DNA from: a virus
Taxonomy: Duplodnaviria; Heunggongvirae; Uroviricota; Caudoviricetes
Direction: 5' to 3' (one strand)
Virus record (IMG/VR): IMGVR_UViG_2534682325_000029
Length of the DNA stretch: 19,196 nucleotides
This document shows positions 1 through 5,874 of this stretch, piece after piece. The position numbers and the translations under genes were made by a program. The notes under the pieces are model-generated. The model was not told where the DNA came from, did no database searches, and saw only the letters and a program-made list of their open reading frames with translations. Each line of letters begins with the position of its first letter. The first letter of the stretch is position 1.

Positions 1-1023
1 TTACTTGGAATATTTTCTTGGAATATTTTCAGGTAACGGGACATCAAGTGTTGGTGAAACTTTAACCTTCCTGTCATAGATTAGCACTTGCCCTTCGGTT
101 TTGTGACCAGAGAAAAGTTGCTTATCCCGGCTGCTTCCTTCATAGTCTGAAATTCCTTTCGCCTTCAGATCATGAAAGGTGAAGTCGGTTAAAATACCTG
201 AAATTTTGCCTGCGTGATTTCTTGCTTCTACCCACATTTCGTTAAAGCCTTTGTACATATATCGGTTGCCGTATTGATTGCTGATTACATAGGCGGATGT
301 TGGTAACTGTTTTGCTTTTTCGATCGCCGCCTGTAATCGTGGACTCCATGCTTTTATCTGTTTTTTCCCTGTTTTCCCTTGCTGGATAAAGATCCCGTCG
401 TTTCCAATCTGCTCCCATTTCAGCGATAACACATCGGAAACCCTCGCTGCACACAGATAGGCAATTTCCATTGCGATAAAAACAGGAAGAGGTGCAACGC
501 TTAATACTGCCTGGTATTCTTTGTCGGTTACATATCGTTCGCGGTTTTTGGCCTTGAATTTACTTACACCTGCACATGGGTTAGCCTTCACGTATCCTCG
601 CTCATACCCCCAACTATAAACGCGCGACATACTGCTTTTTTCATGGTTTGCCTGCGTTTTACTCTGCTCGCCTCTTTTGTCCATGTATCGTCTGATGTGC
701 TCTGGTTTTACAGAATCGGCCAGCACCTTACCGAATACGGCCAGCAGCTTTTTTTGATGTTGCAGATAATCTTTTTGAGTTCTAGGACTAAGCTCGCTGT
801 AATAGGCGCTGGCGAGAAATTTTTCCCACAAACGCCCAAATGTCATTGCGCGATCGCGATGGTTAACCGTTTCTTCATACTTTTTCCATAATGCGGCTAA
901 ACCATCCTCGATTGCAGTTAAGGTTACAGATTCTCTGGATGTCGGTTTCCATACACTATATTTATTGGGGTATACCTTTGGCGGTAATTTTTCGTGTTCG
1001 GGATTTTTCCTTCGTCTTCCCAT
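1..1023 (-). CDS. int: Tyrosine recombinase, lambda-type phage integrase (340 aa)
   Basis: Full-length ORF. N-terminus MGRRRKNPEHEKLPPKVY parallels lambda Int MGRRRSHERRDLPPNLY as recalled from memory. C-terminal region carries HDLKAKG and LIYDRK consistent with the catalytic His and Tyr box. Start overlaps the upstream excisionase stop (TAATG). Confidence 0.88.
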   Translation of the reverse strand: MGRRRKNPEHEKLPPKVYPNKYSVWKPTSRESVTLTAIEDGLAALWKKYEETVNHRDRAMTFGRLWEKFLASAYYSELSPRTQKDYLQHQKKLLAVFGKVLADSVKPEHIRRYMDKRGEQSKTQANHEKSSMSRVYSWGYERGYVKANPCAGVSKFKAKNRERYVTDKEYQAVLSVAPLPVFIAMEIAYLCAARVSDVLSLKWEQIGNDGIFIQQGKTGKKQIKAWSPRLQAAIEKAKQLPTSAYVISNQYGNRYMYKGFNEMWVEARNHAGKISGILTDFTFHDLKAKGISDYEGSSRDKQLFSGHKTEGQVLIYDRKVKVSPTLDVPLPENIPRKYSK

Positions 1024-1226
1024 TAGATCGCACCGAAATCAGGTTCAGCCTCACGTGGTGGTAAAGTTTTTATACAGGTAAACAGTTCCCGACTGACGAT
1101 CGGTTTTCCACTACGATTGGTATAGAACGGAAGCCCATTTTTTATTAACCAGTTGCGCTGGTGGCTTGCATATTTGCAGCCCGTTAACGTTTGCAATTCA
1201 TTTTCGGTTAAAAATATGCTGCTCAT
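1023..1226 (-). CDS. Excisionase-like small DNA-binding protein (67 aa)
   Basis: Small ORF immediately upstream of int and translationally coupled to it by a 1-nt overlap. Size and position fit an Xis/AlpA-type directionality factor. Function inferred from context, not from a recognised motif. Confidence 0.55.
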   Translation of the reverse strand: MSSIFLTENELQTLTGCKYASHQRNWLIKNGLPFYTNRSGKPIVSRELFTCIKTLPPREAEPDFGAI

Positions 1227-1284: not shown

Positions 1285-3756
1285 TTAAAAATCAGCCTGA
1301 CTCGGGAGCAGTTTTTGCCAGATGGCTGAAACGTATTTTGCCTGGTAACGCGCATCGTGCAGGGCGTTATGGCGTTCACCTTCGAATGGAATAGTCGTTC
1401 TTGCGTCGAAATCCATCACCAGTCCCAGAGCAACCATCGTTCTTACATCGCGATCATTGGTGTAACGCCACGGGCAGGGGATCCCCTGCCGTTCATATGA
1501 ACGGCGTAAAATCACGTTGTCGAAAGTTGCACCGTTACCCCAGACCTGAACAAAAAATTCACCGGAGTTTTCGTCGATAAATTCCCGGAATTGCAGCAGT
1601 GCATCATCCAACGTGATTTCATCGGTCAGAATGGAGGATTGTGCTTCGCGTGACTGTTTCAGCCACCACTTAATGGTGTCCCGATCGATGACCCCACCTG
1701 CGGTTTCCAGATCGATAGTTTTGCTGAATTCTGGCCCCATCTCTCCGGTTGCCGGATCAAAAAACTTACCGGCTATAGAGTTTATTGGCGCATCAGGATT
1801 TTTTCCCATTGTTTCAAGGTCAATCATCAGATGGTGCCACAACCTGCTGGTGGATGAGATTTCATGATGACCGTTCACTTTAATTAAGGGATTTGCTGTT
1901 TCGCCAGTTTTATTATCGCTGGCGTGATACTGATCGCTGCCAGTGTTCTCCTTGTGCAGATGTTCAGTGCCTTCCATTTCCTCCGGATCATTTTTCTGAG
2001 CTTCAGCCTGATTCTCTTCATCGAATGTTTCCAGGTAGGTTGCGTTCCCCATCACCGCACCACAGTCAGGACAGTTGCCGCCACCGGTCTGACCGCATGC
2101 GGTGCAAACTTTTTCCAGTTCCTGTTGCACTGCTGGTTCTGGTTGTTGTTCTTCTGGCCCGTTTTGTTGCGTATCCGGGCTGTTTTGTTCCGCTTCTGGC
2201 TCATTTTGTTTCACGTTGGGCTGATTCTGGTCCTCAGCGTCGCGACTCTGGATCCCTTTCACCCATTTCGGATCATTCGGGTCGCTAATCCCTTCAACAA
2301 ATTCACCACGTGATGCAGCAAGCAATTTATCGGCGTCAGGCTGGCTGATATTGGCTGCCTGCATAATTTTGTTTACTTCGTCAGCGGTAACTTTTACCGG
2401 CTCTGATTGTTCGGAATCTTCAGCGGTATCCACATTTTGCGGTAAGCCCGTGTATGTGCCATTTTTTCGGGCAAAATATTCTTCTTTTGAGATTTCGGTA
2501 CCGCCGGCAGCCAGCGCCTTGTCCAGACCAGAAAGTTTGTTTGCCCTGCCGTATTTTTCCCCGCCCTTATCGGTAAAGACGAAATAAAATGGTCCTTCAC
2601 GCTCTACAGATGGTTCAGCTTCCACCAGGATTTCATTTTTTTGAGTATCGGATTCTGCCGTCTCCACTGGAGCAGTTTGTGCTGCTGACGGCTGGAGAGC
2701 ATCAGTAGAGCTCTGGTCTGTTTCTTCATGTTCAAACACGCCCTTTGTCGTCAGGTATTCACTGATATATTTGTTCAGTGCAACGGGATCTTTGTGAATA
2801 TCGATCGGACGTTCGCGAACAAGGCCAAAAATAGTCTGACGGTCATAGCCAAGTGCTTCGGGCTGTTTGCGCATTGATGCTGAGATACGCTTCCAGTCTT
2901 CGCGATCCTTGTCGATAACCTCATTTGTCGCCCAGCGATGGATGGTACCGTCAATGTTTCCTGCATCCACATCACCGGGCCAGAGGGCGCAGGCCAGTTC
3001 ATTGTCGAGTGTTTTCCATGTCTGTTTGTATTCGCGGCGAATGGCAACAGTGACAGCCCCGGTTTTTTCAGCAGCGTTTTCAGGGTTCTGTTGGTTGACT
3101 CTGGCGCGGGCGAGATCAACAACAGACGTGTATTTTCCGGTTTCCTTGCGTTCACCTTCGCGACGTTTTTTCCAGATGCGCATCTCTGCCTGAATTTCAG
3201 GCCATTTAGCGCCAGGCTCACATTTATGCTTAACCCACCCGATGGCATGCAGTTTAAGTTCAGGATACATGGCGTTAACTTCTGGCATTTTCATCAACGC
3301 TTCAACGATATGTCCGCCGAATGTTGCCATGTCTTCCTGTAGTAATTCCTGTGCGCTAATCACCATATCAACGGTGATGTTTTCGCATGTGTCGAATTTA
3401 ACCAGGACTGCGTTCTGTACTTCAGGGGACAGCTTGTCAAAATTGACGTTCATCGGATCGGATTCTGGTTCGACCGGTACAAAGGAAGCTGACTCCTCAT
3501 CCCAGCGGTTTTCCTGCATATATTCGGTATCCCAGGAATCGAGGGCAGGGCGGGGTATGCCGGGTTTATCCTCGCAGACAATAAATTTATAAGCGCAGTC
3601 CTGAGCTGCCGGGAATTGCTCCAGAAATTGCCAGTGAAATTTTGCGCGTGCGCGACGCTCATCACCGGCTTCAATGGCAGTGGCCACCGCAACAGCGCTA
3701 TCTTCTTTTATGGCCTGTTCGTCAGGAATAGCAGCGCAAATAAAGATTTTACTCAT
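1285..3756 (-). CDS. Large prophage exonuclease (823 aa): RecE-like central segment, Q/E/P-rich linker, CxxC-x8-CxxC zinc ribbon, C-terminal DEDDh 3'-5' exonuclease domain
   Basis: C-terminal motifs MIDLETMG (Exo I, D-x-E), GNGATFDNVIL (Exo II) and HNALHDARYQ (Exo III, H-x4-D with Tyr) are typical of DnaQ-like exonucleases. Central segment DADKLLAASRGEFVEGISDPNDPKWVKGIQ resembles RecE of Rac as recalled from memory. SD GAGGT precedes the ATG. Confidence 0.75.
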   Translation of the reverse strand: MSKIFICAAIPDEQAIKEDSAVAVATAIEAGDERRARAKFHWQFLEQFPAAQDCAYKFIVCEDKPGIPRPALDSWDTEYMQENRWDEESASFVPVEPESDPMNVNFDKLSPEVQNAVLVKFDTCENITVDMVISAQELLQEDMATFGGHIVEALMKMPEVNAMYPELKLHAIGWVKHKCEPGAKWPEIQAEMRIWKKRREGERKETGKYTSVVDLARARVNQQNPENAAEKTGAVTVAIRREYKQTWKTLDNELACALWPGDVDAGNIDGTIHRWATNEVIDKDREDWKRISASMRKQPEALGYDRQTIFGLVRERPIDIHKDPVALNKYISEYLTTKGVFEHEETDQSSTDALQPSAAQTAPVETAESDTQKNEILVEAEPSVEREGPFYFVFTDKGGEKYGRANKLSGLDKALAAGGTEISKEEYFARKNGTYTGLPQNVDTAEDSEQSEPVKVTADEVNKIMQAANISQPDADKLLAASRGEFVEGISDPNDPKWVKGIQSRDAEDQNQPNVKQNEPEAEQNSPDTQQNGPEEQQPEPAVQQELEKVCTACGQTGGGNCPDCGAVMGNATYLETFDEENQAEAQKNDPEEMEGTEHLHKENTGSDQYHASDNKTGETANPLIKVNGHHEISSTSRLWHHLMIDLETMGKNPDAPINSIAGKFFDPATGEMGPEFSKTIDLETAGGVIDRDTIKWWLKQSREAQSSILTDEITLDDALLQFREFIDENSGEFFVQVWGNGATFDNVILRRSYERQGIPCPWRYTNDRDVRTMVALGLVMDFDARTTIPFEGERHNALHDARYQAKYVSAIWQKLLPSQADF

Positions 3757-3851: not shown

Positions 3852-4040
3852 TTATCCAGCCGGTGTTTCGTTATTCAGGTACAGCGATACTTTTTTTACC
3901 GGTAGGCATTCACCAGAAATTTTTTGCTCGTCTCTTGCCTGGAGGCAGGATTCTTTACTGGCATAAATTCCGGTAATAACATTCTGTGATTCACCCGTTA
4001 TAAGAAAAACCGTCATCACCAGTGCAAATGCTGAAGTCAT
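3852..4040 (-). CDS. YdfD-like small protein with N-terminal hydrophobic segment (62 aa)
   Basis: ORF directly downstream of the dicB-like gene with a 4-nt stop/start overlap, mirroring dicB-ydfD order in the Qin prophage. N-terminal MTSAFALVMTVFLITG is hydrophobic. Confidence 0.5.
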   Translation of the reverse strand: MTSAFALVMTVFLITGESQNVITGIYASKESCLQARDEQKISGECLPVKKVSLYLNNETPAG

Positions 4041-4225
4041 TGACGTTCTCCGAAAATACCAAGTTTAATAAGGGCAATTCGGGAAAGAATGGAATTATCA
4101 TTGAGCAGATAAGGCTCATATTTCCGCATATTAATGGCATCCTCAGTAAACGCTTTATTACTGAGCAGAACACCAATATCAAAACAACCTTCAGACGTAT
4201 TAACGTTTGGTAATAACGTTTCCAT
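4037..4225 (-). CDS. dicB: DicB-like cell-division inhibitor (62 aa)
   Basis: N-terminus METLLPNVNTSEGCFDIGV...FTEDAIN closely matches E. coli DicB (METLLPNVNTSEGCFEIGV...FTEDAIN, recalled from memory). Same length as DicB. A DicF-like sRNA lies upstream as in the dicB operon. Confidence 0.75.
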   Translation of the reverse strand: METLLPNVNTSEGCFDIGVLLSNKAFTEDAINMRKYEPYLLNDNSILSRIALIKLGIFGERQ

Positions 4226-4403: not shown

Positions 4404-4445
4404 AAAAAGGGCGGATATCCATTTCCGCCGAATCACCAGAAAAGT
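4404..4445 (-). ncRNA. dicF: DicF-like small RNA (divergent, shortened variant) with intrinsic terminator
   Basis: Minus strand reads TTTCTGGTGATTCGGCGGAAATGGATATCCGCCCTTTTT. The 5' TTTCTGGTGA matches the DicF 5' end as recalled, and GGCGG...CCGCC plus a T5 run forms a terminator hairpin. Sits immediately upstream of dicB as in Qin. Internal loop is shorter than K-12 DicF, so function is uncertain. Confidence 0.45.
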
Positions 4446-4705: not shown

Positions 4706-4858
4706 TCAGTTAGCGTTTCTTGCTAACCAGCGATGCGCGCCAGCTTCGGTTTTAAACGTTTTACTTCTGGTATACGTCATCGCGGTAAACGTGCCGTCGT
4801 GGTTGGGGAATACTCCGCACACCAGAGATTCATTGTTGCCAAGATTGAGCATATCCAT
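4706..4858 (-). CDS. YdfA-like small protein (50 aa, below the ORF-track size cutoff)
   Basis: Hand-translated minus-strand ORF MDMLNLGNNESLVCGVFPNHDGTFTAMTYTRSKTFKTEAGAHRWLARNAN, preceded by SD GAGGT. First gene downstream of the putative PL promoter, matching ydfA position in the Qin dicB operon. Confidence 0.45.
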   Translation of the reverse strand: MDMLNLGNNESLVCGVFPNHDGTFTAMTYTRSKTFKTEAGAHRWLARNAN

Positions 4859-5038: not shown

Positions 5039-5083
5039 AATCTAAAAGTATTTAGTTTTTCAGTCAAGGTAAATCTAGATTAA
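5039..5083 (-). promoter_or_regulatory. Putative OL/PL: leftward promoter (-35 TTGACT, 17-bp spacer, -10 TAGATT on minus strand) overlapping operator-like AATCTA/TAGATT palindromes
   Basis: Minus strand reads TTGACT (plus 5062-5067) then 17 nt then TAGATT (plus 5039-5044). Operator-like sites AATCTAAAAGTATTTAG (5039-5055) and perfect palindrome AATCTAGATT (5072-5081) overlap it. Confidence 0.45.
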
Positions 5084-5132: not shown

Positions 5133-5780
5133 TTATAAGTTGAACTGTACACCTTTTGCTACGGCAACAATTTTACACTCTGGTGTAAGTAAGGATGACT
5201 GATAGCGTGGATTGAGAGGGCTTAAATACACAAGCTTCCCATCAATAACTAATTTCTTTATAGTCATAGATGGTTCATTTTTAAGCGGATCCGGAACTAT
5301 TACAGCGACGATGCTGCCATTTTTATAACTTTCTCCTGGCCTTAGGATCACAGTAGCACCAACTGGGATACTCGGTGATCCTGATGGGTTATGCATTGTG
5401 TCATCAGGCATTGAAACGGCAAAATCACCTTCCTCGACATCAAAGAATGTGGTGATTCTATCGACATTTCCCATTGTTTTCTCTCCTTTTAAGATTAGGA
5501 AAGAAATCGCCTCACCCCACGAAAGGTAGGGGATCTTGGTGCCTGAGGTACTTTGTACAAAAGATAATTCAGGAGACGATACTCCATATAGGAGATAGGA
5601 CTCAGTAGTTCCTAATGCCTGGGCTAACTTACTTAGAGCTTTGCTACCTGGTTCGTTTAGATCTTTCTCCCAGTACCCTATAGTAACCCCAGTCACGCCT
5701 GAAAGCTTACCCAGTTCTACTTGGGTCAGCCCCTTATCTTTTCTAAGTCTCTTAAGCCTGAAGCCAAGGCTTTCCATCAT
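5133..5780 (-). CDS. CI-type prophage repressor: N-terminal HTH (XRE family) plus C-terminal LexA/S24 peptidase-like domain
   Basis: N-terminal GLTQVELGKLSGVTGVTIGYWEKDLNEPGSKALSKLAQALG is an HTH_XRE signature. C-terminal ~120 aa has the size and layout of an S24 autocleavage domain. Start taken at the ATG ATG pair preceded by AGGAGA; the ORF-track start at 5792 is a TTG. Confidence 0.82.
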   Translation of the reverse strand: MMESLGFRLKRLRKDKGLTQVELGKLSGVTGVTIGYWEKDLNEPGSKALSKLAQALGTTESYLLYGVSSPELSFVQSTSGTKIPYLSWGEAISFLILKGEKTMGNVDRITTFFDVEEGDFAVSMPDDTMHNPSGSPSIPVGATVILRPGESYKNGSIVAVIVPDPLKNEPSMTIKKLVIDGKLVYLSPLNPRYQSSLLTPECKIVAVAKGVQFNL

Positions 5781-5874
5781 TTTCTCCTGCAAATTGAATA
5801 TAAATTATTTTAGATTGCATTGACCTAAAAAAAATTATCTTGTAATCTAAAAATACTTAGATTTGGGAGGTAAA
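5781..5874. promoter_or_regulatory. Putative OR region with divergent PRM/PR promoters and operator palindrome AATCTAA-N6-TTAGATT
   Basis: Intergenic region between divergent cI-like and cro-like genes. Contains TTGACC at 5820-5825, an A/T-rich -10 region, palindrome AATCTAAAAATACTTAGATT (5844-5863) and an extra TAGATT half-site at 5811-5816. Half-sites match those in the OL region. Confidence 0.5.

What the first reader, a model, noticed from the sequence alone, without database searches (positions are those of the whole stretch)
1285..3756. Unusual exonuclease architecture: RecE-like segment fused through a Q/E/P-rich linker and zinc ribbon to a DEDDh 3'-5' exonuclease domain
Canonical RecE and lambda Exo are 5'-3' nucleases of the PD-(D/E)xK type and are paired with an annealase (RecT or Bet). 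Here the catalytic domain has clear DnaQ-like DEDDh motifs, no annealase-sized gene follows, and the protein has a long low-complexity acidic linker plus CTACGQTGGGNCPDCG. It may act in recombination with opposite polarity, or in another process such as nucleic-acid degradation for defence or anti-defence.
Basis: partly seen in the sequence, partly recalled or inferred. Interest (0 to 1): 0.45.

Follow-up and report, generated by a model that had tools for sequence, protein, structure and literature searches.

The report
RecE scaffold carrying a 3'-5' exonuclease
A very common, uncharacterised E. coli prophage gene is a natural domain swap in which RecE's non-catalytic region carries a DexA/DnaQ-type 3'-5' exonuclease instead of RecE's 5'-3' nuclease, and it never has an annealase partner.

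Summary
ORF 1285-3756 (-) encodes an 823-aa protein of an E. coli O157:H7 lambdoid prophage.

- **C-terminus:** aa 641-813 is a PF16473 (Rv2179c/T4 DexA-like) DEDDh domain with all five catalytic residues.
- **Middle:** aa 473-625 is about 80% identical to RecE aa 450-591, including the Q/E/P linker and the CxxC-x7-CxxC ribbon. RecE has both, so they are not a new junction.
- **Breakpoint:** similarity stops at RecE residue ~591, where the similarity to the PD-(D/E)xK domain (Pfam match from aa 615) would begin.
- **N-terminus:** aa 1-260 is not RecE-like; it is the YdfE_N module.

No annealase is present here or in about 18 related loci. The gene is always the last early-left gene before xis-int.

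It is not rare: 3527 of 5426 complete E. coli genomes carry it, and K-12 ydfE is its remnant. A 2025 survey already lists a nuclease-only, Chi-rich "Tritos" phage class. The same scaffold also occurs fused to the RecE nuclease, fused to a Rad52/Erf-like fold, or alone beside gam-bet-exo. I read this as a DNA-end/recombination role. A defence role like the DexA homologue EcD is the main rival. Function is untested.

The parts
1285..3756 (-). Complete ORF, 823 aa plus stop; identical to RefSeq WP_000034457.1 'exonuclease'
3052..3756 (-). aa 1-235: YdfE_N module (PF27430). Not similar to RecE. K-12 ydfE is the remnant of this part, cut by IS2.
   Evidence: dN/dS 0.10-0.17
2722..3051 (-). aa 236-345: helical module, probably YdfE_C (PF27432). 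Shared at about 35% identity with RecE aa 278-360.
   Evidence: dN/dS 0.10-0.16; confident helices in the AF2 model of a homologue
2605..2721 (-). aa 346-384: low-complexity linker evolving nearly neutrally
   Evidence: dN/dS 0.5-1.1; pLDDT below 50
2446..2604 (-). aa 385-437: small beta-hairpin plus helix mini-domain (GPFYFVF...GRANKL...EISKEEY)
   Evidence: The only confident part of the AF2 model of this protein, pLDDT 73-80. Confident in the homologue model too. dN/dS 0.05-0.13.
2242..2340 (-). aa 473-505: conserved motif LLAASRGEFVEGISDPNDPKWVKGI. Shared with RecE and with most DEDDh-type and PD-(D/E)xK-type relatives.
   Evidence: dN/dS 0.03-0.20
2113..2241 (-). aa 506-548: Q/E/P-rich linker, also present in RecE
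   Evidence: dN/dS 0.3-0.5
2032..2112 (-). aa 549-575: four-cysteine zinc-ribbon-like motif (C551, C554, C562, C565). Also in RecE and in the Stx-phage scaffold-only protein. Absent from the Kluyvera-locus fusions and from three other divergent relatives of unknown host.
   Evidence: dN/dS 0.04-0.16
1837..2031 (-). aa 576-640: acidic linker. RecE similarity ends at aa 625 (RecE ~591), which is the swap point.
   Evidence: dN/dS 0.6-0.9
1288..1836 (-). aa 641-823: DEDDh 3'-5' exonuclease domain (PF16473, T4 DexA-like). Catalytic residues D646, E648, D746, H796, D801.
   Evidence: dN/dS 0.10-0.11
1023..1226 (-). Downstream gene: DUF4224 excisionase. This is the position where RecE-type loci have recT.
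1..1023 (-). Tyrosine integrase; reaches the window edge. Annotated as frameshifted in a reference genome.
3852..4225 (-). Upstream genes of the same operon: dicB (4037-4225) and the DUF1482/ydfD-like gene (3852-4040)
5039..5067 (-). The only sigma-70-like promoter match on this strand upstream of the gene. Candidate early-left promoter. No promoter-like site lies directly before the exonuclease gene.
   Evidence: consensus scan only, weak evidence
1846..1853 (+). Chi site (GCTGGTGG) inside the gene. It is one of five top-strand Chi sites in the window; the others are at 1157, 6359, 11885 and 13891. One bottom-strand site is at 12343.

Best explanation
The gene encodes an early-left-operon DNA exonuclease of a lambdoid prophage. 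It is a natural catalytic-domain swap of the RecE family.

A non-catalytic scaffold carries a C-terminal DexA/DnaQ-type DEDDh domain in place of RecE's PD-(D/E)xK 5'-3' nuclease. The scaffold consists of the YdfE_N module, the YdfE_C-like helical module, a mini-domain, the conserved RGEFVEGISDPNDPKW motif and a four-cysteine ribbon, joined by floppy linkers.

Proposed mechanism:
- The DEDDh domain removes nucleotides from 3'-OH ends of DNA by two-metal-ion catalysis.
- The scaffold brings it to the same partner or DNA-end substrate that RecE's own N-terminal region addresses.
- It works without a phage annealase. Its phages are Chi-rich, so they probably rely on host RecBCD-Chi-RecA.
- In that setting, trimming 3' tails would condition phage DNA ends, for example by blunting them for RecBCD entry.

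Shown here: the architecture, the breakpoint, intact catalytic residues, purifying selection on every folded module, absence of an annealase, Chi enrichment, and scaffold promiscuity.

Inferred: DNA rather than RNA as substrate, 3'-5' polarity, the tethering role of the scaffold, and cooperation with RecBCD.
For: Sharp swap point. Protein similarity to RecE ends at aa 625 (RecE 591). At the DNA level, K-12 recE homology to 'exonuclease' genes starts at RecE codon ~590 in the sampled hits annotated as exonuclease (H93, H95-H109).

A natural chimera, P0132, has RecE aa 1-448 at 93-100% identity plus this DEDDh domain at 87%. All four combinations of N-module and nuclease module exist.

Functional constraint. 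dN/dS is 0.03-0.20 in the folded modules and about 0.5-1.1 in the linkers in comparisons with close homologues. All five catalytic residues are present in 118 of 120 E. coli clusters. Isolated phages carry the full-length gene: Tritos, HannyBb, PhiR42_1 and mEp460_ev081.

Recombination context of the parts:
- The stand-alone homologue in phage epsilon34 (52% identical) sits between an SSB gene and abc2, next to a putative recombinase. PMC12315714 counts it as a Rec-module nuclease.
- The scaffold is fused to the RecE nuclease with recT downstream in 1636 genomes.
- The scaffold alone lies directly upstream of gam-bet-exo in Stx phage 75/02.
- The scaffold is fused to a domain whose AF2 model matches Rad52/Erf-type annealases in BFVD, probability 0.99-1.00.

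No annealase, and xis-int directly downstream, in about 18 loci of three genera.

Chi. The window has 6 sites against 0.70 expected, 5 of them on the top strand. Fourteen related loci have 48 sites in the active orientation against 9 in the other. Rac, epsilon34 and Stx 75/02 early regions have 0-2. This agrees with the nuclease-only, Chi-rich 'Tritos' class of PMC12315714.

No promoter-like site lies directly upstream of the gene.
Against: No biochemical or genetic data exist for this protein; no functional study of YdfE appeared among the literature hits, judged from titles and abstracts only.

The Pfam family is named after an exoribonuclease, Rv2179c, so RNA cannot be excluded as substrate.

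3'-5' ssDNA exonucleases usually inhibit recombination, as PMC12315714 itself notes. A pro-recombination role is therefore not self-evident.

That paper also declines to count DnaQ-type genes lying next to int as Rec-module genes.

A related E. coli stand-alone enzyme has a demonstrated defence activity (PMC12153337).

The scaffold has no structural or sequence match to any protein of known function. Its tethering role is pure inference.
Confidence: 0.45

Rival explanations
1. Superinfection defence ('HREX'-like). The DEDDh domain selectively digests incoming phage DNA that carries modified cytosines, such as T-even 5hmC DNA, and so protects the lysogen or the induced cell.
For: PMC12153337 reports that a stand-alone E. 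coli DexA homologue, EcD, degrades T4 DNA but not unmodified dsDNA, and protects cells from T4. The paper says bacterial DexA homologues are commonest in Escherichia, Citrobacter and Klebsiella and absent from K-12. That taxonomic pattern matches the distribution of this family. DexA is the closest solved structure.
Against: - The residue aligned with DexA W152, which DexA needs for 5hmC DNA, is T766 here. It is T, Y or N, never W, in 119 E. coli clusters.
- The D169 equivalent is V780; this loop alignment is uncertain.
- The D90 equivalent, whose loss defines EcD-like enzymes, is retained as D718 and invariant in the family alignment.
- No PADLOC defence model matches.
- The gene has no promoter-like site of its own and lies in the early-left operon behind a terminator-like site. 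That argues against expression in the lysogen.
- This reading does not explain the RecE-type scaffold.
Confidence: 0.25
2. A 3'-5' exoribonuclease acting on phage or host RNA, as the NCBI name '3'-5' exoribonuclease' implies.
For: The Pfam family PF16473 is named after the M. tuberculosis exoribonuclease Rv2179c. Many RefSeq copies are named that way.
Against: Rv2179c was not retrieved from the PDB even with a family profile, while the DNA enzyme T4 DexA was, at E=7e-22. Every known partner or alternative cargo of the scaffold is a DNA recombination enzyme.
Confidence: 0.1
3. Nucleotide scavenging, like T4 DexA: degradation of host DNA fragments to mononucleotides during lytic growth.
For: Homology to DexA. 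DexA's host-DNA scavenging role is described in PMC12153337.
Against: Temperate lambdoid phages are not known to degrade host DNA (my own knowledge). No endonuclease partner is evident in the operon. An elaborate, conserved 640-aa scaffold is unnecessary for bulk oligonucleotide degradation.
Confidence: 0.07
4. Anti-defence: removal of a host immune nucleic acid that has a free 3' end, for example retron msDNA or linear signalling oligonucleotides.
For: Only the general precedent that phage early genes often counter host defences. There is no specific evidence from this work.
Against: No similarity to known anti-defence proteins was found. DEDDh enzymes need a free 3' end, so cyclic signals are excluded (general knowledge of the fold).
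Confidence: 0.05
5. A decaying, non-functional mosaic remnant in a cryptic prophage.
For: K-12 carries only a truncated copy, ydfE. Some copies are split or interrupted by IS elements. The neighbouring integrase is annotated as frameshifted.
Against: Strong purifying selection on all folded modules. Intact catalytic residues in 118 of 120 clusters. Full-length copies in 3527 genomes and in viable phages.
Confidence: 0.02

Closest known systems
RecE (exonuclease VIII) of the Rac prophage, E. coli K-12
   Same: Shares the helical module (aa 262-345 to RecE 278-360). Shares the conserved RGEFV(E/D)GISDPNDPKW motif, the Q/E/P linker, the CxxC-x7-CxxC ribbon and the acidic linker, at about 80% identity over aa 473-625. 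Occupies the same early-left operon position in a lambdoid prophage.
   Different: The catalytic domain is DEDDh (PF16473), not PD-(D/E)xK (PF12684). The N-terminal 235 aa are YdfE_N, not PF06630. No recT follows. The NCBIfam RecE equivalog scores 260 bits against a cut-off of 1269.
T4 DexA (PDB 8KEL/8KEN) and the E. coli DexA homologue EcD ('HREX', PMC12153337)
   Same: Same DEDDh family, with all five catalytic residues aligned: DexA D7, the second motif-I acid (E9 in the HMMER alignments; the paper's legend prints E12), D119, H186, D191 correspond to D646, E648, D746, H796, D801.
   Different: DexA and apparently EcD (inferred from its residue numbering) are stand-alone proteins; DexA is 227 aa. 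Here the domain is the C-terminus of an 823-aa scaffold protein. The W152 equivalent is Thr. The D90 equivalent is retained.
Stand-alone DnaQ-like nuclease of lambdoid Rec modules, for example phage epsilon34 gp34 (PMC12315714)
   Same: 52% identical to the C-terminal domain, and also in the early-left operon.
   Different: gp34 is 182 aa and is packed between an SSB gene and abc2, next to a putative recombinase. Here the domain is fused to the RecE-type scaffold, and no SAP, SSB or anti-RecBCD gene is present.
'Tritos' Rec-module functional type (nuclease only; PMC12315714, Table 1)
   Same: The phage Tritos protein TRITO_27 is 85% identical over the full length. The gene order is the same: dicB, ydfD, exonuclease, xis, int. 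Both have no SAP and many Chi sites biased to the top strand.
   Different: None of substance; this window is a member of that class. The text I could read lists the class only in a table. It does not describe the domain architecture or the swap with RecE. Its supplement was not available.
E. coli K-12 YdfE (Qin prophage)
   Same: The DNA match to K-12 covers only the part of the gene encoding aa 1-255, at 89% identity, in the same dicB-ydfD context. Pfam names the two N-terminal families after it.
   Different: YdfE is truncated by IS2. It lacks the RecE-like middle region and the exonuclease domain.

Membership tests
DEDDh (DnaQ-like) exonucleases, Pfam PF16473 Rv2179c/DexA-like | Pfam model score above the gathering threshold | tested here: met
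   209.6 bits against a cut-off of 27, aa 641-813, full model length
DEDDh (DnaQ-like) exonucleases, Pfam PF16473 Rv2179c/DexA-like | Exo I (DxE), Exo II (D) and Exo III (Hx4D) catalytic residues | tested here: met
   D646, E648, D746, H796 and D801 are invariant in 16 diverse homologues and align with the DexA catalytic residues. Present in 118 of 120 E. coli clusters.
DEDDh (DnaQ-like) exonucleases, Pfam PF16473 Rv2179c/DexA-like | Mg2+-dependent 3'-5' exonuclease activity; substrate DNA or RNA | not testable with these tools
   Needs an enzyme assay
RecE / exodeoxyribonuclease VIII | C-terminal PD-(D/E)xK (RecB-like, PF12684) nuclease domain | tested here: not met
   RecE has PF12684 at aa 615-850. 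The query has no such hit, and its similarity to RecE ends at RecE 591.
RecE / exodeoxyribonuclease VIII | NCBIfam equivalog PRK09709 above its cut-off | tested here: not met
   260 bits against a cut-off of 1269; only aa 453-625 match
RecE / exodeoxyribonuclease VIII | N-terminal Exonuc_VIII domain (PF06630) | tested here: not met
   Absent here. Present in RecE and, by BLAST similarity to the RecE N-terminus, in sister DEDDh fusions such as the ST131 and P0132 proteins.
RecE / exodeoxyribonuclease VIII | Adjacent annealase gene recT | tested here: not met
   The downstream genes are xis and int. recE-recT pairs are found in 1636 genomes.
RecE / exodeoxyribonuclease VIII | Shared non-catalytic middle region (motif, linker, four-cysteine ribbon) | tested here: met
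   About 80% identity, aa 473-625 to RecE 450-591
HREX defence exonucleases (EcD type, PMC12153337) | Trp equivalent to DexA W152, needed for 5hmC DNA | tested here: not met
   T766 here. T (43), Y (74) or N (2) in E. coli clusters, never W.
HREX defence exonucleases (EcD type, PMC12153337) | Acidic residue equivalent to DexA D169 | tested here: inconclusive
   Aligns with V780 in a variable loop, with D782 nearby. The alignment is uncertain.
HREX defence exonucleases (EcD type, PMC12153337) | Loss of the tetramer-forming Asp (DexA D90) | tested here: not met
   The equivalent D718 is retained and invariant in the family alignment
HREX defence exonucleases (EcD type, PMC12153337) | Protection against T4 and selective cleavage of modified DNA | not testable with these tools
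   Needs plaque and nuclease assays
'Tritos' nuclease-only Rec-module type of lambdoid phages (PMC12315714) | A nuclease gene in the early-left operon, with no SAP, SSB or anti-RecBCD gene | tested here: met
   The Tritos orthologue is 85% identical with the same gene order.
'Tritos' nuclease-only Rec-module type of lambdoid phages (PMC12315714) | Abundant Chi sites biased to the top strand | tested here: met
   5 top and 1 bottom in 19.2 kb against 0.70 expected. 48 against 9 in 14 related loci.
Zinc ribbon | Two CxxC pairs, conserved | tested here: met
   C551, C554, C562 and C565 are invariant in 16 E. coli sequences. dN/dS 0.04-0.16. The motif is absent from the Kluyvera-locus fusions and three other divergent relatives of unknown host.
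Zinc ribbon | Metal binding and fold | not testable with these tools
   The AF2 model of this region has low confidence

The most novel reading that the evidence does not exclude
The non-catalytic part of RecE is a general 'delivery platform' of enterobacterial lambdoid phages. It presents interchangeable DNA-end enzymes to one host target or substrate: a 5'-3' PD-(D/E)xK nuclease, a 3'-5' DEDDh nuclease, a Rad52/Erf-like annealase, or none when Red proteins are encoded alongside. On this reading the DEDDh version defines an annealase-independent strategy. The phage trims 3' ends so that its Chi-rich genome is handled productively by host RecBCD-RecA. If so, RecE's long-unexplained N-terminal 590 residues would gain a function. 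The 'RecE-2' proteins described as lacking a nuclease would include unrecognised annealases.
Probability: 0.25. Interest if true: 0.6.

Novelty: new variant of a known kind. Interest (0 to 1): 0.4.

Why it matters
The gene is one of the commonest prophage genes of E. coli. It is in about two thirds of complete genomes, with up to ten matching places per genome (full or partial copies), including the O157:H7 prophages. Yet it has no tested function, and databases variously call it exonuclease VIII, exonuclease or exoribonuclease.

Recognising it as a RecE-scaffold/DexA-domain swap has four consequences:
- It corrects the 'exodeoxyribonuclease VIII' annotations.
- It gives a defined construct boundary, aa ~626, for biochemistry.
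- It links two 2025 papers that do not cite the connection: the nuclease-only, Chi-rich 'Tritos' phages and the DexA-like 'HREX' defence enzymes.
- It offers a handle on the unexplained non-catalytic part of RecE, which matters for recombineering with full-length RecE.

Tried and rejected
- **AlphaFold2 of the window protein.** The only alignment allowed had 16 sequences at least 86% identical. It failed, with mean pLDDT 36; only aa 390-435 were confident. I therefore make no structural claim about the scaffold of this exact protein.
- **Sequence searches for the scaffold.** A profile search of the PDB, the local Pfam copy and PADLOC found nothing.
- **Rv2179c.** It was not retrieved from the PDB even with a family profile.
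- **Literature.** Searches for Rv2179c with prophage, DexA with Rv2179c, ydfE, and full-length RecE gave nothing on function.
- **Supplement of PMC12315714.** The tables are not held. I could not see whether the authors type the Tritos nuclease as RecE or DnaQ.
- **DicF.** Rfam did not find it in this window.
- **Shared short motif.** I considered that the motif G-x-F-[SV]-[IV]-[DE]-[GN]-[LI] of the annealase-type relatives is the same as RGEFVEGIS here. A regular-expression count did not settle it, and I do not claim it.
- **Catalytic motif count.** A first strict pattern count (51 of 120) was an artefact of the pattern. It was replaced.
Full report
**Where the window comes from.** The first 6 kb are 100% identical to many E. 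coli O157:H7 chromosomes. In a reference genome the region is a lambdoid prophage next to tRNA-Ser and mtfA. On the minus strand the order is: LexA-like repressor (5133-5792), DUF1391/ydfA-like (4706-4858), dicB (4037-4225), DUF1482/ydfD-like (3852-4040), the finding's ORF (1285-3756), a DUF4224 excisionase (1023-1226), and the integrase (1-1023). The ORF is RefSeq WP_000034457.1, named 'exonuclease'.

The ORF has 823 codons.
- Pfam places a full-length PF16473 'Rv2179c-like 3'-5' exoribonuclease' domain at aa 641-813, with E=3.6e-62.
- In an alignment of 16 homologues, from enterobacteria to alphaproteobacteria and Patescibacteria, D646, E648, D746, H796 and D801 are invariant.
- A profile of that alignment finds T4 DexA (8KEL/8KEN) at E=7e-22. 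It also finds, weakly, other DnaQ-type exonucleases.
- The residues align with the DexA catalytic residues named in PMC12153337.
- All five are present in 118 of 120 E. coli cluster representatives.
- The NCBIfam RecE equivalog matches only aa 453-625, far below its cut-off.

**What exactly is RecE-like.** I fetched K-12 RecE. It has PF06630 at aa 2-178 and the PD-(D/E)xK domain PF12684 at aa 615-850.
- BLASTP gives a single HSP: query 262-625 to RecE 278-591.
- The part from query 473 onward is about 80% identical. It includes LLAASRGEFV(E/D)GISDPNDPKWVKGIQ, the Q/E/P-rich stretch, C(T/N)ACGQTGG(G/D)NCPDCGAVMG and the acidic tail. It ends at ...ANPLI / ...ADPVI.
- So the linker and four-cysteine ribbon are parts of RecE itself, not a new joint.
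- The swap point is at RecE ~591. From memory of the RecE literature (Chang & Julin 2001; Zhang et al. 2009), this is where the catalytically sufficient C-terminal domain begins. I did not check those papers here.
- The breakpoint is equally sharp in DNA. With K-12 recT-recE as query, the sampled hits annotated 'exonuclease' (H93, H95-H109) start at query position 1632-1639, which is RecE codon ~590, and none includes recT.
- The first ~260 aa have no similarity to RecE. They belong to the new Pfam family YdfE_N; a second family, YdfE_C, covers part of the following region.
- K-12's ydfE is the N-terminal remnant of this gene, cut by IS2.

**No annealase.**
- Pfam and PHROGs scans of the other window ORFs found replication, regulatory and HNH/RusA-type genes. 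They found no RecT, Bet, Erf, Rad52 or Sak4.
- I fetched related loci from E. coli, E. ruysiae, E. albertii, Kluyvera, Citrobacter and unnamed Enterobacteriaceae, plus phage Tritos.
- I compared all their ORFs with a panel of RecT, Bet, Erf, the epsilon34 recombinase, SSB, Gam and Abc2.
- In about 18 loci the long DEDDh fusion (709-851 aa) is followed directly by xis-int wherever the downstream region could be read. None has a panel annealase within 8 kb.
- In Citrobacter and Kluyvera only two or three small ORFs separate the repressor from the gene.
- By contrast, 1636 genomes hold a match covering at least 80% of the combined recT-recE query, and the sampled rows show recE followed by recT.

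**It is common and maintained by selection.**
- 3527 of 5426 complete E. coli genomes hold a copy covering at least 80% of the gene, with up to 10 matching places per genome (full or partial copies).
- Full-length copies occur in sequenced phages: Tritos, HannyBb, PhiR42_1, mEp460_ev081, Evi and the PPompW phages.
- Outside close relatives the N-terminal 630 aa are narrowly distributed. Only 247 clusters at 50% identity match among 1.84 billion proteins.
- Nei-Gojobori dN/dS against Tritos and an E. albertii copy is 0.10-0.17 for aa 1-235, 0.10-0.11 for 236-345, 0.05-0.10 for 385-437, 0.05-0.20 for the motif at 473-505, 0.04-0.05 for the ribbon, and 0.10-0.11 for the DEDDh domain. The linkers at 346-384 and 576-640 give 0.7-1.1.
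- This is a working multi-domain protein with floppy spacers, not a remnant.

**A modular family.** I mapped the representatives with domain probes and aligned them. The modules recombine in these forms:
- YdfE_N with DEDDh: this protein.
- PF06630-type N-terminus with DEDDh: for example the ST131 protein and the L007 protein, both again before xis-int. P0132 is RecE aa 1-448 at 93-100% identity joined to this DEDDh domain at 87%.
- PF06630-type N-terminus with PD-(D/E)xK: RecE itself.
- YdfE_N with PD-(D/E)xK: P0129 and P0232.
- Scaffold only: the 682-aa 'exodeoxyribonuclease VIII' of Stx phage 75/02 has the motif and ribbon but no nuclease domain. It lies directly upstream of gam-bet-exo.
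- Scaffold plus a ~270-aa C-terminal domain with no Pfam or PDB sequence match. Many Enterobacter, Klebsiella, Citrobacter, Pantoea and Salmonella proteins named 'exodeoxyribonuclease VIII' are of this type.

For that last type, an AF2 model built from 120 sequences is confident per domain, with mean pLDDT 70.7. Foldseek against viral models returns ~210-290-aa phage proteins. Several are named Rad52/59/22, RAD52-like recombinase, Erf or single-strand annealing protein, at probability 0.99-1.00 and E from 1.7e-6 to 5e-2. The domain alone finds stand-alone phage genes annotated 'DNA repair protein'. The tool does not report which residues aligned, so assigning these hits to the C-terminal domain is my inference.

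Taken together, every characterised or inferable cargo or neighbour of this scaffold is a DNA-end or recombination enzyme.

**Literature.** PMC12315714 (Genome Res 2025) surveys lambdoid recombination modules.
- It reports DnaQ-like 3'-5' nucleases in them, for example in epsilon34, and remarks that such enzymes usually inhibit recombination.
- It mentions sporadic DnaQ-type genes near int that it does not count as Rec-module genes. [quoted passage not shown]
- Its Table 1 has a 'Tritos' type: nuclease present; SAP, SSB and anti-RecBCD absent; 4 phages, all Chi-rich.
- The only nuclease annotated in the Tritos early-left operon is TRITO_27, which is 85% identical to this protein.

So the nuclease-only class is published. 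The architecture and its relation to RecE are not described in the text I could read. In epsilon34 the 52%-identical stand-alone gene sits between an SSB gene and abc2, next to a putative recombinase.

PMC12153337 (NAR 2025) solved DexA. It shows that a stand-alone E. coli homologue, EcD, digests T4 DNA and protects cells. It does not mention prophages or fusions.

**Chi sites.**
- The window has 6 Chi sites against 0.70 expected from shuffles. Five are on the top strand, one of them inside the gene.
- The Tritos genome has 9 top and 2 bottom.
- Fourteen related loci have 48 in the corresponding orientation and 9 in the other, over 125 kb.
- The early regions of Rac, epsilon34, Stx 75/02 and a P0133-type prophage have 0-2.
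- This fits the published idea that phages without their own recombination system use RecBCD-Chi.

**How it most likely works.**
- *Shown:* a DEDDh active site is intact and conserved. It is tethered by unconstrained linkers to conserved modules shared with RecE. The gene lies in the early-left operon with no promoter-like site of its own (weak evidence). There is no annealase. The genome is Chi-rich.
- *Inferred:* the enzyme removes nucleotides from DNA 3' ends. The scaffold targets it to the same partner or substrate as RecE's N-terminal region. In a phage that depends on RecBCD-RecA it conditions DNA ends, for instance by blunting 3' tails so that RecBCD can load. That role is proposed for host ssDNA exonucleases (Thoms & Wackernagel 1998, from memory).
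- I give this reading 0.45.

**Main rival, 0.25: an EcD-like defence nuclease.**
- Against it, the residue aligned with DexA W152 is Thr here, and T, Y or N in all E. coli clusters.
- The Asp whose loss characterises EcD is retained.
- PADLOC finds nothing.
- The scaffold would be left unexplained.
- Still, Tyr in 74 of 119 clusters could stack on a base like Trp, so the rival stays serious.
- RNA degradation, nucleotide scavenging and anti-defence are less likely. Decay is excluded.

**Verdict.** The finding is real and correctly read at the level of domains. It belongs to a known but uncharacterised family whose 'nuclease without annealase' status is already in print. What this work adds:
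- the exact RecE breakpoint;
- the combinatorial scaffold family;
- the selection profile;
- the link between the Tritos-type and DexA/EcD literature.

Novelty: new variant of a known kind. Interest: 0.4.

Noticed in passing
L048:7001-9370 (protein P0133, Enterobacter hormaechei); also P0177, P0130, P0271-P0387: Many enterobacterial proteins named 'exodeoxyribonuclease VIII' carry the same YdfE_N/YdfE_C scaffold but no nuclease domain. Their ~270-aa C-terminal domain has no Pfam or PDB sequence hit. An AF2 model matches Rad52/Erf-type single-strand annealing proteins in the viral structure library. In L048 the gene lies mid-operon, followed by an overlapping Sipho_Gp157 gene. These may be the 'RecE-2' proteins of PMC12315714 and may be unrecognised annealases. 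Phage ZF40, listed there as having no SAP, has one at 54% identity.
   Followed up: partly
L049:2568-4616 (Shigella phage 75/02 Stx): A 682-aa 'exodeoxyribonuclease VIII' consists of the RecE-type scaffold only, with motif and four-cysteine ribbon but no nuclease domain. It lies directly upstream of gam, bet and exo. It ends in a short segment (...AAVYGLCANPA...) that also ends the YdfE_N-type protein P0125.
   Followed up: partly
window 4410-4442: dicB is intact, but the DicF sRNA upstream of it seems lost. Rfam finds no DicF. Against the Tritos dicF region the flanks align (4606-4433 and 4414-4350), yet only the first 10 nt of the 53-nt DicF remain (4433-4442). A terminator-like hairpin persists at 4410-4429.
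   Followed up: partly
window 1157, 1846, 6359, 11885, 13891 (+ strand) and 12343 (- strand): Chi sites are about ninefold over the shuffle expectation, and five of six are in one orientation. The same bias (48 against 9) holds in 14 related prophage loci. Early regions of Rac, epsilon34 and Stx 75/02 have 0-2.
   Followed up: yes
protein P0270 (752 aa, representative cluster; not in the window): This DEDDh-type relative has Lys in place of the catalytic Glu (DLKTMG) and Ala in place of the Exo II Asp (SFANV). It may be a catalytically dead variant kept for its scaffold.
   Followed up: no
window 1-1023: The integrase ORF reaches the window edge. The identical reference genome annotates it as a frameshifted pseudogene, so this prophage copy may be unable to excise.
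   Followed up: no
window 10888-11212, 13978-14224, 14998-15170, 17239-18452: Other features of the prophage: a hok/sok toxin-antitoxin locus, three tRNA genes downstream of the Q antiterminator gene, an STnc100 sRNA match just before the SASA/NanS-type esterase gene, and an IS3-family IS1203 insertion with its ALIL frameshift pseudoknot.
   Followed up: no
E. coli K-12 Qin prophage (hits H76, H77): K-12 ydfE, which gives its name to the Pfam families YdfE_N and YdfE_C, is only the N-terminal part of this exonuclease gene; the DNA match covers aa 1-255. It is truncated by IS2, so the name-giving protein lacks the catalytic domain.
   Followed up: yes
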